In this document: one piece after another, positions 16,997 through 56,461 of the stretch
Numbering within the stretch: position 1 is the stretch's first letter
How the letters are laid out: every line of letters starts with the position of its first letter
NCBI GenBank assembly: GCA_964016885.1
Contig: OZ024742.1
Location: 205,840,001-205,904,000 of the forward strand
Direction: 5' to 3'
Origin: Eledone cirrhosa
Lineage: Eukaryota
DNA: 64,000 bases
Translations under genes and position numbers: made by a program
Notes under the pieces: model-generated
Seen by the model: the letters and a program-made list of their open reading frames with translations, nothing else
What the model was told of the DNA's origin: nothing
Databases searched by the model: none

Positions 16997-17311
16997 ATAA
17001 TATAAGATCAAAAGATGGTTAAAGGAGTTCCATGTATTTTATTATGCGCATTTCAAAAACAAACATCATCATGCAATAATATTTGTGTTTTCATCAGATA
17101 AAACAGGAGAACATGATATGAAGGCTAAAAAACACTTGTGGATTGTGCAGTTTTAAATCAACATATCCACAAGTGTTTTTTAGCCTTCATATCATGTTCT
17201 CCTGTTTTATCTGATGAAAACACAAATATTATTGCATGATGATGTTTGTTTTTGAAATGCGCATAATAAAATACATGGAACTTCTTTAACCATCTTTTGA
17301 TCTTATATTAT
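16997..17311. repeat. 147-bp inverted repeat with 21-nt spacer, inside a (TA)n-bounded insert (Penelope-like pLTR remnant)
   Basis: Arms 16997-17143 and 17165-17311 differ at one position. Confidence 0.95.
17203..17273 (+). ncRNA. Type-I hammerhead ribozyme (mirror copy on the - strand at about 17035-17105)
   Basis: Stem I TTTTAT/ATAAAA, CTGATGA at 17211, long AU-rich stem II, GAAA at 17254, palindromic stem III ATGCGCAT and cleavage triplet AUA at 17263-17265. Confidence 0.75.
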
Positions 17312-17931
17312 GCATACTCCAGTCCTACAAACTGTAGAGTGCTTCTTATCCGATATCTGCATTGCTTTATTGTACTACAATAAAACTCACCTCCTACATT
17401 ATATATATATATATATGTATATATATTTAATACAATAACAGAGATAGCTTAACGCTAAACTCCGACTGGTAACCATCTCACTCAACAAACATTAGGTTAT
17501 ATGTTAGTATAACCCAATTTAAGTGTTTGGGGTGCTAACTATATGTATTTTGTGGAAAGCCAGTTGTATTATTTTATGAGATATAATTAAAGTTAAAATA
17601 TATCTCTCTTTCCAAACAATTGTTTCATTATAAGTTTTCTACAAATTGGGAGAATGTTTCCATTTTATGTAGAAGCCTAACATACATTCATGTAAGAATA
17701 TATTTAGGTGGGTACTTATAAATCTTCAGTGGAAGCCCATTAAACTTTGATATAAGAAAAAATTTCTTACCGCAGTTAAAAATCGTGTCTGCTAAGCTGC
17801 TCCCTCACGCATCGAATGACCGCCAAATTTGAAATTCCAGCAGTTTTTTGACTGAGGAAGTTTCATAGCGCCACGAAGCGGGAAGGGGAGACAATCACAA
17901 TACACACACACACACACATATATATATATAT

Positions 17932-18047
17932 ATAGGAACCAGTAAGTCCCCGACAGCTGAGCTCAAGCCGTTTCGACGGCTAATTCAGTCCAGAATTAGC
18001 CGTCGAAACGGCTTGAGCTCAGCTGTCGGGGTCTTACTGGTTCCTAT
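17932..18047. repeat. 55-bp inverted repeat with 6-nt spacer between (TA)n tracts
   Basis: Arms 17932-17986 and 17993-18047 differ at one position. The repeat contains a hammerhead 3'-half-like GAAACGGCT...AGCTGTC. Confidence 0.9.
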
Positions 18048-18163
18048 TACCCACTCTACTACTTCAAGTATTGAGTACTTTGGTGCGTTATGGTCCACCT
18101 GGTTCCTTACCACATTTCCTTCGTTATATATATATATATATATATATATATATATATATATAT

Positions 18164-19522
18164 AAGGTTTAGGATGGCGGTTAGGATGGAACAAGAGGAG
18201 AAAGGAAGAAAGGAGTTTCCATCGTCAGCTGCAAATGTTTCCTGATCCGATGTTTCGGCGCTGAACTTCGGTGTAGTTCGGGTGCGCCCGAGGCCTTTTA
18301 TTAATCAAAAGGCCTGGTGGAAAAGGAGAGAGAAAGAGAGAAAAAAAAGAGAAAAAAGGGGAGAAAAAAGGAAAGAGAAAAGGAAAGAGAGGGAAAGGAG
18401 GAAGAACAAGGGGGAAAAATGAGGAGAGAAGAAGAAAGGGGGAAGGGAAAAGGGGAAAAAATAGGAAAGGAATAGGAGAAAAAAGTGTACAGGTCCCATC
18501 GTGGGAAGACACAGGTGAAAGAAACATGCAAATGAGTAACCGTGGAAAAATAGGGAAAGTAAGTTGTGGCCAACCTGGGAGACTTTAGCCTGGTGGTCAG
18601 CTACGACTCAGAGTTGGTATAATTGTGCTGCCTCTCACATAGACGGGAGAAAGTAAGAGAGAGACACGAGCATTCAAAAGGGAGGAGAAGGGAAAGGGAG
18701 ATAATCCAGAAGGGTTTTTTTATGACGGTGGTAAAAACGTGCCGCAAAGATTGCGGGTCATAGCAGTAAAAACAAAATGATATGAAACGAATGGATTGGC
18801 AGTATCGGTAGAGGGTCGGACGCCATGCTTTGACGCATAGAGTTACGGCCCTTGCCATTCTGAGTTCAAATCCCGCTGAGGTTAACTTTGCCTTTCATCC
18901 TTACGGGGTCGATAAAATAAAGTACCAGTAATGTACTGAGATAATTGCTGGCCTTGTGCCAATAGTAGAAACCGATATGAAACGAAAGGAGCTGTGTGGT
19001 TACTAAAAACAAGGTTTAGGATGGTGGAGGCAGCACGATTATACCAGCTCTGAGTCGTAGCTGACCACCAGGCTAAAGTCTCCCAGGTTGGCCACAACTT
19101 ACTTTCCCTATTTTTCCACGGTTACTCTTTTGCATGTTTCTTTCACCTGTGTCTTCCCACGATGGGACCTGTACACTTTTTTTTCTCCTATTCCTTTCCT
19201 ATTTTTTCCTCTTTTCCCTTCCCCCTTTCTTCATCTTTTCCCCCATTGTTCTTCCTCCTTTCCCTCTCTTTCCTTTTCTCTCTCCGTTTTTTTCTCTTTT
19301 TTTTTTCTCTTTCTTTCTCCTTTCCCATCTGGCCTTTTGATTAATAAAAGGCTTCGGGCGCACCCGAACTACACCGATGTTCAGCGCCGAAACATTGGAT
19401 CCGGAAACATTTGCAGCTGACGATGGAAACTCCTTTCTTCCTTTCTCCTCTTGTTCCGTCCTAACCACCATCCTAAACCTTGTTTTTAGTAACTACACAG
19501 CCCCTTTCGTTTCATATCATTT
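18164..19522. repeat. (TA)n-flanked ~460-bp inverted duplication of a purine/pyrimidine-biased non-coding unit
   Basis: 18164-18634 is the reverse complement of 19027-19481. AAGGTTTAGGATGG recurs directly at 18164 and 19011, implying a partial tandem unit. Confidence 0.9.
18792..18973 (+). mobile_element. SINE family A with a 13-bp target-site duplication
   Basis: GATATGAAACGAA at 18779-18791 and 18974-18986 flanks the copy. Confidence 0.92.
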
Positions 19523-20236
19523 TATATATATATATATATATATATATATATATATATATATATATATATATATATATATATATATATATATATATATATA
19601 TATATATATATATATATATATATATATATATATATGAAGCAAAGCAAAAGTTAGTAAAAGTTGTTAGAGGTGAAAGAACACAAATTAGATGGTTTCGTTT
19701 TGATACAAAATTCACTTCACTTCAGTTAATAAATGAACAAAGAATAAGTTACAAGTTATAATGGTTGACGATGTTTTTGCTGTTATGGTGAAATAGTCTG
19801 TGTCAAGAGAAGGTGAGAGCCTGTAAGACCACGAGAGAGAGAGAGAGAGAGAGAGAGAGAGAGAGAGAGAGAGAGAGTAAAGGACTGTAGAAGTCTTAGG
19901 ATATGTGTCAAGAACTGCTCTGAACTGCCTTTTGGCCTAGTCTAAGACAGGCTATTTATACCTGTCGCTTCCTCTGTCCCCTGCCTCGAGGGATCGCCCA
20001 CGCATAGGCTTGTTTACGCCAAAAAGGAGGTAACCTAGAATTTGACCGTTAAATGTCACCCAGAGGTCAAGGTGTGGACAGATTTTGCTACATTAGTTCC
20101 CCGCCTAGATCGATGCAGGAGCAGCGATCGATAATCGAAAAATTAGCGAAAGAGAAAGAGAAAAAGACCCCCCCCCCCGCAAAGACGAATAAATAATTAA
20201 ATGCAAATGAACAAATTATAGATGAGATGAGGAATG

Positions 20237-54663: not shown

Positions 54664-54675
54664 ATGTATGTATGT

Positions 54676-55384
54676 ATCAACATCACCCTTTTACGTCCGT
54701 TCTTCCACGCTAACATGGGTTAGACGGGTTGTCCTGTTGTGGGCAGTGTCCAGTCGGATGACCTTGTCCTGCTCATACAGGAACTGATTCTGGCTTGATT
54801 TCTACAGCTGGATGCCCTTCCTAACACTAATCTCATTTACAGTGAGTGGTGGGAGCTTTTTTTCCGTGGTGTCTTCACGTCCACTTTACAGTGTGGCCTG
54901 GGTGCTTTTTTGTCGTGGCACCTCCACGACCACTTCGCAGTGGGAGGAGGTGGGGGCATATTGTCTATAAGCTTCAGCTTCGGTTTGTACCCGTGGGAAG
55001 TCGGGTCTTCTGTATTACTGTGGGACGCCAGAGGTCACAGTCCTGTGTCACTGCCCTTGAGAGGTACAATTGGGTAAGGTCGGCTTTTATCACCTCATCC
55101 TAGGTCTTCTTGGGTCTCCCCACTCCACAGCTTCCATCGACTTCTAGTGCTCTGCACCTTTTAATGCAGCTGTCATCCTTCATACGCATCACATGTCCAT
55201 ACCAATGCAACCTCCTCTCCTGCACACAGCATTTGATTCCTCTTATGCTCAGTCTCTCTCTCAACTCATTTATGCTTTGCCGTTCATGTATATTACTATT
55301 ACACATCCATTGGAGCATGCAAGTTTCATTTCTTTCTAATCTACACAAGTCTTCTACAGACAGCACCCAGTTCTCACTACCATT
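54676..55384 (-). mobile_element. RTE-clade LINE 3' fragment, same family as 30700-31523
   Basis: LERNETCMLQWMC...RRLHWYGHVMR...GRPKKT and a matching UTR. Confidence 0.85.
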
Positions 55385-55467
55385 TATGTATGTATGTATT
55401 AGCCATTAGAGAAAGCAAATGCTTCACCTTCGATCCTAGGATGACTCAAGAAGAAGTATATATATAT

Positions 55468-55860
55468 ATCATCATCATCATCATCACCGTTTTACGTCTG
55501 TTCTTCCACGCTAGCATGGGTTAGATGGCTTGACCTGTTGTGGGCAGTGTCCGGTCGGCTGACCTTGTCTTGCTCATACGGGAACTGATTCTGGCTTGAT
55601 TTCTACAGCTGTATGCCCTTCCTAACACCAACCTCATTTACAGTGAGTGCTGGGTGCTTTTTTTTTTTCCGCGGCACCTACACCTCCACTTTGCAGTGGA
55701 ATGATAGGGACCCCAGTCCTATCATCTCATTTCTACAGCTGAGTAAACTGGAGCAATATGAAATAAAGTGTCTTGCTCAAAGAAACAACACATCACCCCG
55801 TCTGGGAATTGAACTCCGATTGCAAGCCCAATGCTCTAACCACTAAGCCATGTGCCTTCA
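55468..55860 (-). mobile_element. SINE family B with RTE tail
   Basis: Reverse complement of the 43199-43530 organisation, with a (CAT)n tail. Confidence 0.85.
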
Positions 55861-55959
55861 CTAGCCTTCACAACCACTAAGCCATGAGCCTTCATATATA
55901 TATATATATATATATATATGAGAGTATTGAAGTTTGCTTGAAGCATTGTGGAATAATAA

Positions 55960-56461
55960 GGTAAATTTCTTTAAGTCGTTTGGAAGCCTTGACAATGCAA
56001 ATGGGTAAATCTCCGGGTAACAAGATCCGGTGGTGGAGAGAGAGATGTAAGTGGGTGTACGTTGAGATGCGTGGCGTGTATAAGACATGTAGAGGAATGA
56101 AGAAAAGAGCGTAAAGGATAAAAATAAAAATAACAACATATTCAAAACAACGAACAGCGGAGGACACATTTCGCACCTTTCCGACAGACAACCTTTCCCT
56201 CACCCCGGAAAAACCCCCAGTTGATGGATGTGAATCCGAAATATATAGGGACAATTAAATCTCTCCCAAGGTAACTCTCTCGTGTTGTTATTTTTATTTT
56301 TATCCTTTACGCTCTTTCCTTCATTCCTCTACACGTCTTATACACGCCACGCATCTCAACGTACACCCACTTACATCTCTCTCTCCACCACCGGATCTTT
56401 TTACCCGGAGATTTACCCATTTGCATTGTCGAGGCTTCCAAACGACTTAAAGAAATTTACC
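55960..56461. repeat. 179-bp inverted repeat with 144-bp spacer, between (TA)n tracts
   Basis: 55960-56138 is the near-perfect reverse complement of 56283-56461. Confidence 0.92.

What the first reader, a model, noticed from the sequence alone, without database searches (positions are those of the whole stretch)
16997..56461. Recurring architecture: five non-coding inserts between (TA)n/(CA)n tracts, each with a long inverted duplication and often hammerhead motifs
Seen: 16997-17311, 17932-18047, 18164-19522, 24945-28440 and 55960-56461 share no obvious sequence with each other. All show microsatellite, inverted copy, spacer, forward copy with one arm extending further, then microsatellite. 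Two have complete hammerhead cores and one has a half core. Known: Penelope-like elements (PLEs) carry hammerhead pLTRs, form 5' inverted copies, and some clades target microsatellites. Inferred: these are a diverse set of ribozyme-bearing non-autonomous PLE derivatives (retrozyme-like) integrating by a fold-back mechanism. Microsatellite growth at both junctions might help explain the (TA)n load of this genome.
Basis: partly seen in the sequence, partly recalled or inferred. Interest (0 to 1): 0.75.

Follow-up and report, generated by a model that had tools for sequence, protein, structure and literature searches.

The report
Twin-primed Penelope stubs in TA repeats
These five mirror-image inserts are real. 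Four are truncated ends of protein-coding Penelope-like jumping genes and the fifth is likely a non-coding passenger; the shape is already known, but their fixed ends suggest each was likely written by copying one RNA twice, once from each side of the cut DNA, not by a strand folding back.

Summary
All five inverted duplications are real and sit between (TA)n/(CA)n tracts. They are not a set of non-coding retrozymes. A, B, D and E are 3' ends of protein-coding Penelope-like elements (A, B, D Hydra-type; E CCHH-type); D still holds GIY-YIG remnants. Only C is a non-coding ~820-nt unit, and it has no hammerhead. The inverted pLTR, one-sided tail and microsatellite bias are published. Sister copies test the mechanism. 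In family B, 20 of 21 inverted insertions pair one short end with one tail end, and in 9 of 21 the longer arm lacks the tail, which fold-back cannot give. Joints show microhomology. Short arms pile up at one inner point with a TATA-like box 29 nt upstream; 2,696 arms there carry an extra G, likely copied from the RNA cap. Best reading: both target strands prime on one capped sense RNA from two fixed sites. Microsatellite growth is unproven: flanks are long, but longer duplications or long-tract preference fit, and two empty paralogous sites gained no TA. This scan reported twin priming and cap run-off before, in this genome and others.

The parts
16907..16998 (.). (CA)n(TA)n tract left of insert A
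16999..17165 (-). A: short-end arm; carries the spacer and runs to the family's inner pile-up point (likely RNA start); complete hammerhead, core at 17097
17163..17399 (+). A: tail arm; complete type I hammerhead 17203-17275; tail about 17310-17399; 3' end of a Hydra-type PLE (ORF seen upstream of this end in L154, L155)
17934..17986 (-). B: short-end arm
17987..18124 (+). B: tail arm starting at the pile-up A (unit position 3393, inside hammerhead helix II, hence the half core); tail about 18048-18124; 3' end of a 3.53-kb Hydra-type PLE (tandem units in L151)
18165..18774 (-). C: short-end arm, the longer arm; carries the natural spacer
18775..19027 (-). C: extra inverted tail piece at the joint, later split by a SINE-like repeat (18792-18972) with a 12-bp duplication (18779-18790 and 18974-18985)
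19027..19522 (+). C: tail arm (tail 19481-19522) of a non-coding ~820-nt tandem unit; no complete hammerhead
24947..27954 (-). D: long short-end arm: RT-thumb remnant (27501-27647), GIY-YIG remnant (26761-27159), repeat-rich 3' UTR, pLTR with mutated hammerhead (core 25075)
27957..28438 (+). D: inverted tail arm; complete hammerhead 28232-28325; tail 28368-28438; followed by (CA)n
55920..56138 (-). E: tail arm (tail 55920-55959); 3' end of a CCHH-type PLE (ORF seen upstream of this end in L165, L238)
56138..56461 (+). E: short-end arm, the longer arm; starts at the family's pile-up point; hammerhead-shaped motif with non-canonical core CAGUUGA near 56218-56250

Best explanation
The five inserts are separate 5'-truncated insertions from five families, four traced to protein-coding Penelope-like elements and one likely a non-coding passenger, and each likely formed when the element's GIY-YIG enzyme cut both strands of an AT-rich target and both cut ends primed reverse transcription on the same sense RNA from two fixed internal sites. 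Shown: family identity, two fixed outer ends per family (short end and tail end, 36-83 nt apart), variable inner joints, one-short-plus-one-tail pairing, joint microhomology, a shared inner stop with an extra G in family B. Inferred: one cDNA starts at each site; both run toward the RNA 5' end; priming in the upstream pLTR runs off at the capped start and gives the common small hairpins, priming in the downstream pLTR gives long arms; host repair joins the two cDNAs head to head through 1-5 nt of microhomology or short fillers. Both start sites sit on U/A-rich triplets that could pair with a (TA)n primer end. The hammerhead is a passenger here: inner ends do not fall at its cut site.
For: Parents: B unit in tandem with RT (YRDD)-CxCX5C-GIY-YIG ORF (L151); A ends joined to such an ORF in L154, L155; E ends joined to a GIY-YIG ORF in L165, L238; D carries remnants itself. 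Fixed outer ends of inverted arms: A 22 of 26 at -83; B 14 of 17 at -77; E 4 of 7 at -36; D 5 of 9 at -73 to -78. Pairing in B copies chosen by 3' UTR, not by tail (29 insertions: 21 inverted with both ends seen, 5 uninverted, 3 with an end outside the stretch): 20 of 21 short+tail, 1 near-short+tail, 0 short+short, 0 tail+tail (p 2e-5 against random pairing). In 9 of 21 the short-end arm is the longer. Joints: 11 of 14 filler-free joints have 2 nt or more of microhomology against 15% expected (p 2e-7), 9 of 23 have 1-20 nt fillers. Family A arms differ 1.7% within and 4.8% between insertions; 61 minority variants are shared by both arms, 5 private to one insertion. Inner pile-up within 11 nt: B 35 of 47 arms, A 25 of 56, E 14 of 37, D 10 of 39. 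B: TATTTAAA begins 29 nt before the pile-up A, in an initiator-like context. Of 5,799 arms with a non-T base before that A, 2,696 have G. In 30 such loci none was a point variant of a longer copy, 16 G's were not from the partner arm, and 2 insertions had G on both arms. In vitro, a PLE protein cut and extended both strands from two internal sites that bound the tail, and was predicted to be a dimer (PMC11167929). Short-read data from other samples show the same fixed ends.
Against: No RNA 5' end was seen; the cap reading rests on DNA. Ten of 30 G's can come from the partner arm, and 2 of the 16 others may be target duplication. C is as common as G before the stop (48 and 44 of the first 100, hand count), partly from a subfamily with natural C (3 of 30 loci). 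The control position (G in 7 of the first 100, hand count) was not inspected for subfamily variants. In A, 7 of 8 G's sit at a CATATG palindrome that could supply them. Tail+tail joins exist (3 of 17 short B loci, two of them duplicates). C shows no pile-up (4 of 32) and has no identified parent. Shared arm variants could also come from gene conversion. The pairing rule was tested without tail bias only in B.
Confidence: 0.75

Rival explanations
1. Fold-back or self-priming: one cDNA (or an antisense RNA, as proposed in PMC3846280) folds on itself and is copied back, giving the inverted arm.
For: Arms of one insertion resemble each other more than other copies. Joint microhomology fits both models. 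In B's window copy and 12 of 21 long B insertions the tail arm is the longer one. A's pile-up lies on a 6-bp palindrome.
Against: A fold-back copy cannot hold sequence absent from its template, yet the shorter arm has the tail in 4 of 5 window inserts and 9 of 21 long B insertions. A copy-back of a tail arm should run to the tail end, but stops at the short site in 14 of 17 B cases, the same site that ends uninverted copies (3 of 5). The extra G lies on the sense strand.
Confidence: 0.08
2. Two primings, but from two different RNA molecules held by an asymmetric dimer, or a second priming that is a later rescue step; the inner stop is an RT pause at RNA structure, not the cap.
For: B's stop lies inside hammerhead helix II. 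Young copies are near-identical, so one RNA or two cannot be told apart in B.
Against: Variants private to one insertion occur on both arms in A (5 cases). A, D and E stops lie upstream of their hammerhead-like motifs. A pause does not predict an extra G or a TATA-like box at -29.
Confidence: 0.12
3. The inserts are self-standing non-autonomous retrozyme families that amplify as hairpin units.
For: C is a non-coding ~820-nt tandem unit with no linked ORF in 8 long stretches. Small hairpins of A and B are abundant and similar in size.
Against: Inner joints differ from copy to copy, so each hairpin is made anew. A, B, D, E ends are joined to coding elements. C has a complete hammerhead in 0 of 30 loci.
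Confidence: 0.03
4. DNA-transposon MITEs with fixed TIRs, or fold-back read artefacts.
For: Small A and B inserts look MITE-like in size. No laid read or contig spanned the window's own hairpins.
Against: Arms run from about 45 nt to over 3 kb within one family, are asymmetric and lead into RT/GIY-YIG ORFs. Window arms differ by 2-8%. The fixed ends recur in short-read contigs of 4 of 4 runs and in about 2,000 raw reads in each of 3 samples.
Confidence: 0.02

Closest known systems
Complex insertions of EN+ Penelope-like elements (PMC8557442 passages and Fig. 2 legend; PMC3846280 main text; PMC2377424 passages)
   Same: Partial tandems forming pLTRs, an adjacent inverted 5'-truncated copy, a tail at one end only, head-to-head inverted joints, TATA/Inr-like motifs in the pLTR, about 10-bp target duplications.
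   Different: Tails here are 36-83 nt against 30-40 published. Those texts leave the inversion mechanism open or favour self-priming on an antisense template; the one-short-plus-one-tail rule and the extra G at the inner stop were not seen in what was read.
Hydra clade of PLEs (PMC8557442, section 11)
   Same: B parent: DKT, RWR for RWK, CxCX5C linker, no Cys pair inside GIY-YIG, CxxC and CxH motifs, hammerhead, (TA)n target. A and D parents share the motifs that survive.
   Different: B unit is 3.53 kb (described as generally under 3 kb); no tree with reference elements was built; E has the CCHH-type nuclease and is not Hydra.
Anolis Poseidon element in vitro (PMC11167929, parts 1-2 of 4)
   Same: Two internal RT start sites that bound the tail; both strands cut and extended; AT-rich target; hammerhead cleavage not needed for insertion.
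   Different: The part read does not link the two sites to opposite ends of one inverted insertion, and calls the start site non-homologous to the target, whereas start sites here sit on TAT/ATA that matches (TA)n.
PLE hammerheads and non-LTR retrozymes (PMC4209133 passages; 10.64898/2026.07.22.740005 part 1 of 5)
   Same: Type I hammerheads with palindromic helix III; the U3-A8 core variant seen in B; pairs of motifs 100-700 bp apart on opposite strands were already noted.
   Different: Retrozymes are defined as tandem non-coding units with a hammerhead in each unit; none of the five fits.
L1 twin priming (recalled, no call)
   Same: Both target strands prime on one RNA; cDNAs are joined by microhomology.
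   Different: L1 gives an inversion without duplication; here both cDNAs start near the same end and copy the same stretch, giving a true inverted repeat.

Membership tests
EN+ Penelope-like elements | ORF with RT and C-terminal GIY-YIG linked to the terminal repeat | tested here: met
   B RT and EN (L151); A, E thumb and EN; D remnants. Pfam matches are weak or absent; motifs read from translations. Not met for C.
EN+ Penelope-like elements | Partial tandems forming pLTRs | tested here: met
   B tandems in L151, L213, L219/L220, L226, L232; C tandems in L167, L233
EN+ Penelope-like elements | Adjacent inverted 5'-truncated copy and one-sided tail | tested here: met
   All five window inserts; adjacent inverted arms in A 26, B 17, D 9, E 7, C 2 of 30 loci each
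EN+ Penelope-like elements | Type I hammerhead in the pLTR | tested here: inconclusive
   Met for A (29 of 30 loci), D (17 of 30, at least one from a neighbouring element), B (7 long copies, U3-A8 core); not met for C (0 of 30) or E (the single hit is a neighbour). Cleavage not assayed.
EN+ Penelope-like elements | Target-site duplication | tested here: inconclusive
   Hidden in pure (TA)n. About 10-14 bp in two E copies with empty paralogues.
EN+ Penelope-like elements | RT phylogeny within PLEs | not tested
Hydra clade | DKT in place of DKG; RWK motif | tested here: met
   B parent has SDKTG and LRWRT (RWR variant); region not recovered for A, D
Hydra clade | CxCX5C linker; no CCHH cysteine pair in GIY-YIG; CxxC and CxH near the end | tested here: met
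   A and B parents; D has the same nuclease pattern with a frameshift in the linker. Not met for E, which has CxxC inside GIY-YIG.
Hydra clade | Insertion into (TA)n | tested here: met
   Microsatellite after the tail in A 29, B 29, D 28 of 30
Hydra clade | Generally under 3 kb | tested here: not met
   B unit 3,530 nt; a loose descriptor in the source, so 'Hydra-type' is used
Naiad/Chlamys PLEs | N-terminal GIY-YIG | tested here: not met
   Nuclease is C-terminal in A, B, D, E parents
Non-LTR retrozymes | Non-coding tandem units, each with a type I hammerhead | tested here: not met
   Hammerhead-bearing families are coding; non-coding C lacks the motif
MITEs | Symmetric fixed-length TIRs and a constant interior | tested here: not met
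   Asymmetric ends, arm length and joint vary by copy

The most novel reading that the evidence does not exclude
Penelope-like elements of at least two clades integrate by symmetric double priming on one capped sense RNA: a dimer nicks both strands, one RT starts at the short site and the other at the tail site, the trailing enzyme displaces the leading cDNA, and both can run off at the cap and copy it as an extra G. The inverted pLTR, the one-sided tail and the thousands of small hairpins would all be outputs of this one step, and each event would turn one TA tract into two that regrow. A bolder add-on, that the telomerase-related RT adds TA repeats by slipping on its UAU start site, is not excluded for Hydra-type families but has no direct support (about 0.1).
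Probability: 0.5. Interest if true: 0.72.

Novelty: new member of a known kind. Interest (0 to 1): 0.48.

Why it matters
How Penelope-like elements make inverted repeats and one-sided tails is stated as open in PMC8557442, PMC3846280 and PMC11167929. The end-pairing rule and the extra G turn that into direct predictions for the existing in vitro system: which start site each strand uses, whether one RNA serves both, and where capped RNA begins. For annotation, thousands of MITE-like hairpins in this genome are retroelement stubs. The idea that these insertions explain the genome's TA load (4.4% of sampled bases in pure TA tracts) is not supported for these five families.

Tried and rejected
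Hammerhead cut site as the inner stop: rejected, stops lie upstream of it in A, B, D, E. Hammerhead folds score no better than shuffles, so motif calls rest on pattern rarity. No RNA holder listed for family B. The depth step at L151:7561 in RAD-seq reads coincides with AATT sites and is likely an enzyme cut, so it was not used. No laid contig spanned an empty allele or the window's hairpins, and rows at repeats were dropped by the tool. The repeat between A and B does not span the site in any of 29 other copies, so it gave no empty paralogue. A flank search over 153 insertions gave 2 usable empty paralogues, both family E; part of that output was cut from view. ORFs near C copies in L167, L169 are not linked to C. 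Hammerheads in 400 kb of sampled DNA were only weakly tied to downstream TA (5 of 14, p 0.08). No citable paper for cap-derived G was found; that point is recalled from L1 work. Paper searches for the pairing or twin-priming model in PLEs and for TA addition found nothing stating it; subscription papers and supplements were not seen, and the supplements of PMC8557442 bear on Hydra membership.
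Full report
Observation. Self-comparison of the window confirms five inverted duplications at the stated places, 92-98% alike, each between dinucleotide tracts and with one arm longer at its outer end. The five ends share no BLASTN similarity (10 of 10 pairs). 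A descriptor scan finds complete type I hammerheads in both arms of A and in D's right arm, 3 motifs against 0 in each of 20 shuffles; Rfam finds none. D is not non-coding: its minus strand has GIY-YIG and RT-thumb remnants. The window lies on contig C3 of a 3.0-Gb assembly. The host is likely an octopus; that rests on the recalled look of its SINE and on earlier scan notes, and was not tested.

What the inserts are. Each end has at least 40 scored copies in the genome. Longer stretches link them to parents. B is the end of a 3,530-nt unit found in tandem, with an ORF running RT, CxCX5C linker, GIY-YIG (L151). A ends follow a similar ORF (L154, L155). E ends follow an ORF with CxxC inside GIY-YIG (L165, L238). 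C is an ~820-nt unit whose head follows the tail of the unit before it, with no linked ORF in 8 long stretches. A, B and D fit the Hydra motifs of PMC8557442 section 11, apart from B's length; no tree was built. Full-length B has a complete hammerhead with a U3-A8 core, a variant already described (PMC4209133 passages). C has a complete motif in 0 of 30 loci; E has only a hammerhead-shaped motif with core CAGUUGA (10 of 12 readable copies, 18 of 30 unreadable).

Fixed outer ends, variable joints. In the 150 top-scoring loci (queries included the tail), the tail end is followed by a microsatellite in 136, against 1.7% of window positions. Inverted arms stop a family-specific distance short of the tail end: A 22 of 26 at -83, B 14 of 17 at -77, E 4 of 7 at -36, D 5 of 9 at -73 to -78. 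Short-read contigs from 4 of 4 runs leave B's short end into (AT)n, as do about 2,000 raw reads in each of three samples. MITEs and read artefacts are rejected at family level; no read spanned the window's own hairpins.

Pairing rule. B copies were then chosen by 3' UTR, with no tail in the query. Thirty stretches covered 39 of 41 rows and 29 insertions; L219 and L220 were taken as one array across an unfetched gap. Five were uninverted (3 short, 2 tail) and 3 had an end outside the stretch. Of 21 inverted insertions, 20 pair a short end with a tail end and 1 pairs a near-short end with a tail (p 2e-5). Tail+tail does occur in the short set (3 of 17, two duplicates). In 9 of 21 the short-end arm is longer, as in window inserts A, C, D and E. 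A fold-back copy cannot carry a tail its template lacks, so two separate primings are needed. Joints show 2-5 nt microhomology in 11 of 14 filler-free cases (15% expected) and fillers in 9 of 23. In A, arms differ 1.7% within and 4.8% between insertions, with 5 private variants on both arms; this fits one template but also gene conversion.

The inner stop. Short arms pile up within 11 nt: B 35 of 47, A 25 of 56, E 14 of 37, D 10 of 39, C 4 of 32. B's query began near its pile-up, but the unselected inverted arms stop there too (14 of 17). These points are upstream of the hammerhead cut sites. In B a TATTTAAA box starts 29 nt before the pile-up A, in an initiator-like context, and the point lies inside helix II, which explains the half core. 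Of 5,799 arms with a non-T base before that A, 2,696 have G. In 30 G loci, 10 G's could come from the partner arm, 16 could not (2 of these may be target duplication), and 2 insertions have G on both arms. C is equally common (48 of the first 100 by hand count), partly from a subfamily. Four bases downstream G is 7 of the first 100 (hand count; loci not inspected). An extra G is the expected trace of copying an RNA cap (recalled; two searches found no paper). This points to a capped sense RNA, against the antisense self-priming model of PMC3846280 (parts 1-4 of 5 read). It agrees with the in vitro finding of two start sites bounding the tail and extension of both strands (PMC11167929, parts 1-2 of 4). 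In the window, arms of A, B and E end at their family's pile-up point.

Microsatellites. In forty 10-kb stretches at round coordinates on 19 large contigs, pure TA tracts of 12 bp or more fill 4.4% of bases, median 18 bp. Flanks of 36 inverted B insertions (38 less 2 sharing a flank) have median 30 bp a side and 63.5 bp together. Splitting any tract with a 10-bp duplication predicts 36 bp (p 4e-9), but a 20-bp duplication (59 bp) or a preference for tracts of 30 bp or more (58 bp) fits. Two E copies in AT-rich, non-microsatellite sites have empty paralogues and show only a 10-14-bp duplication. Only 5 of 318 tracts of 20 bp or more abut these families' ends; other PLE families were not counted. 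The full architecture was seen in 6 of 34 inverted-repeat pairs in the sample. Growth is therefore open, and these families explain little of the TA load.

Novelty. The shape is published (PMC8557442 passages; PMC3846280; PMC2377424 passages), and recently active PLEs are counted in Octopus vulgaris (PMC13282606 passages). Retrozymes as PLE derivatives are argued in 10.64898/2026.07.22.740005 (part 1 of 5). Searches found no paper stating the pairing rule, cap run-off or TA addition; supplements were not read. Earlier scan notes reach the same twin-priming and cap reading in this genome and others; they are unreviewed and not independent support. My reading was noted before them. Verdict: new members of a known kind, with useful mechanistic evidence; interest 0.48.

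Noticed in passing
window 29477-30596 (-): A second Hydra-type PLE remnant (RT to GIY-YIG, 38% identical to the B protein) lies just beyond D.
   Followed up: no
window about 20200-24130 (-): Broken Ty3/gypsy-like LTR retrotransposon (DUF7041 gag-like, RT, RNase H by Pfam; class name recalled).
   Followed up: partly
window 17418-17905; L243-L272: Start of a ~996-bp tandem-unit family with at least 40 copies and no long ORF, usually beginning right after (TA)n; unclassified.
   Followed up: partly
window 40992-41214 and 42910-43135: Inverted repeat pair (86%) with TTAACCCTT-type ends and no flanking microsatellite; looks like a true DNA-transposon TIR element (piggyBac-like, recalled).
   Followed up: no
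window 17316-17344, 18052-18080, 28369-28394: Tails of A, B and D share ACTC...GAGT(G/A)C just behind the short end; C and E tails lack it. Only D's tail folds better than shuffles.
   Followed up: partly
window 56218-56250; L061-L090: Family E keeps a hammerhead-shaped motif with core CAGUUGA (10 of 12 readable copies); activity unknown.
   Followed up: partly
L206, L215, L217, L230: In 4 of 21 long inverted B insertions both arms stop within 200 nt of each other deep in the ORF, as if both met the same RNA break; not tested for significance.
   Followed up: no
L288:8435-9720: Tandem 311-bp units each with a short type I hammerhead plus an inverted copy: this fits the retrozyme definition better than any of the five inserts.
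   Followed up: no
L169:1183-3528, L152:208-2106, L153:4353-5876: Further PLE families with long ORFs (one with a CX4CxxC linker, Neptune-like by the motif in PMC8557442) sit beside the studied copies; PLEs nest in one another's TA flanks.
   Followed up: no
window 50831-50904 and 39599-39660: Short palindromes of degenerate CA/TA-rich sequence, not PLE ends.
   Followed up: no
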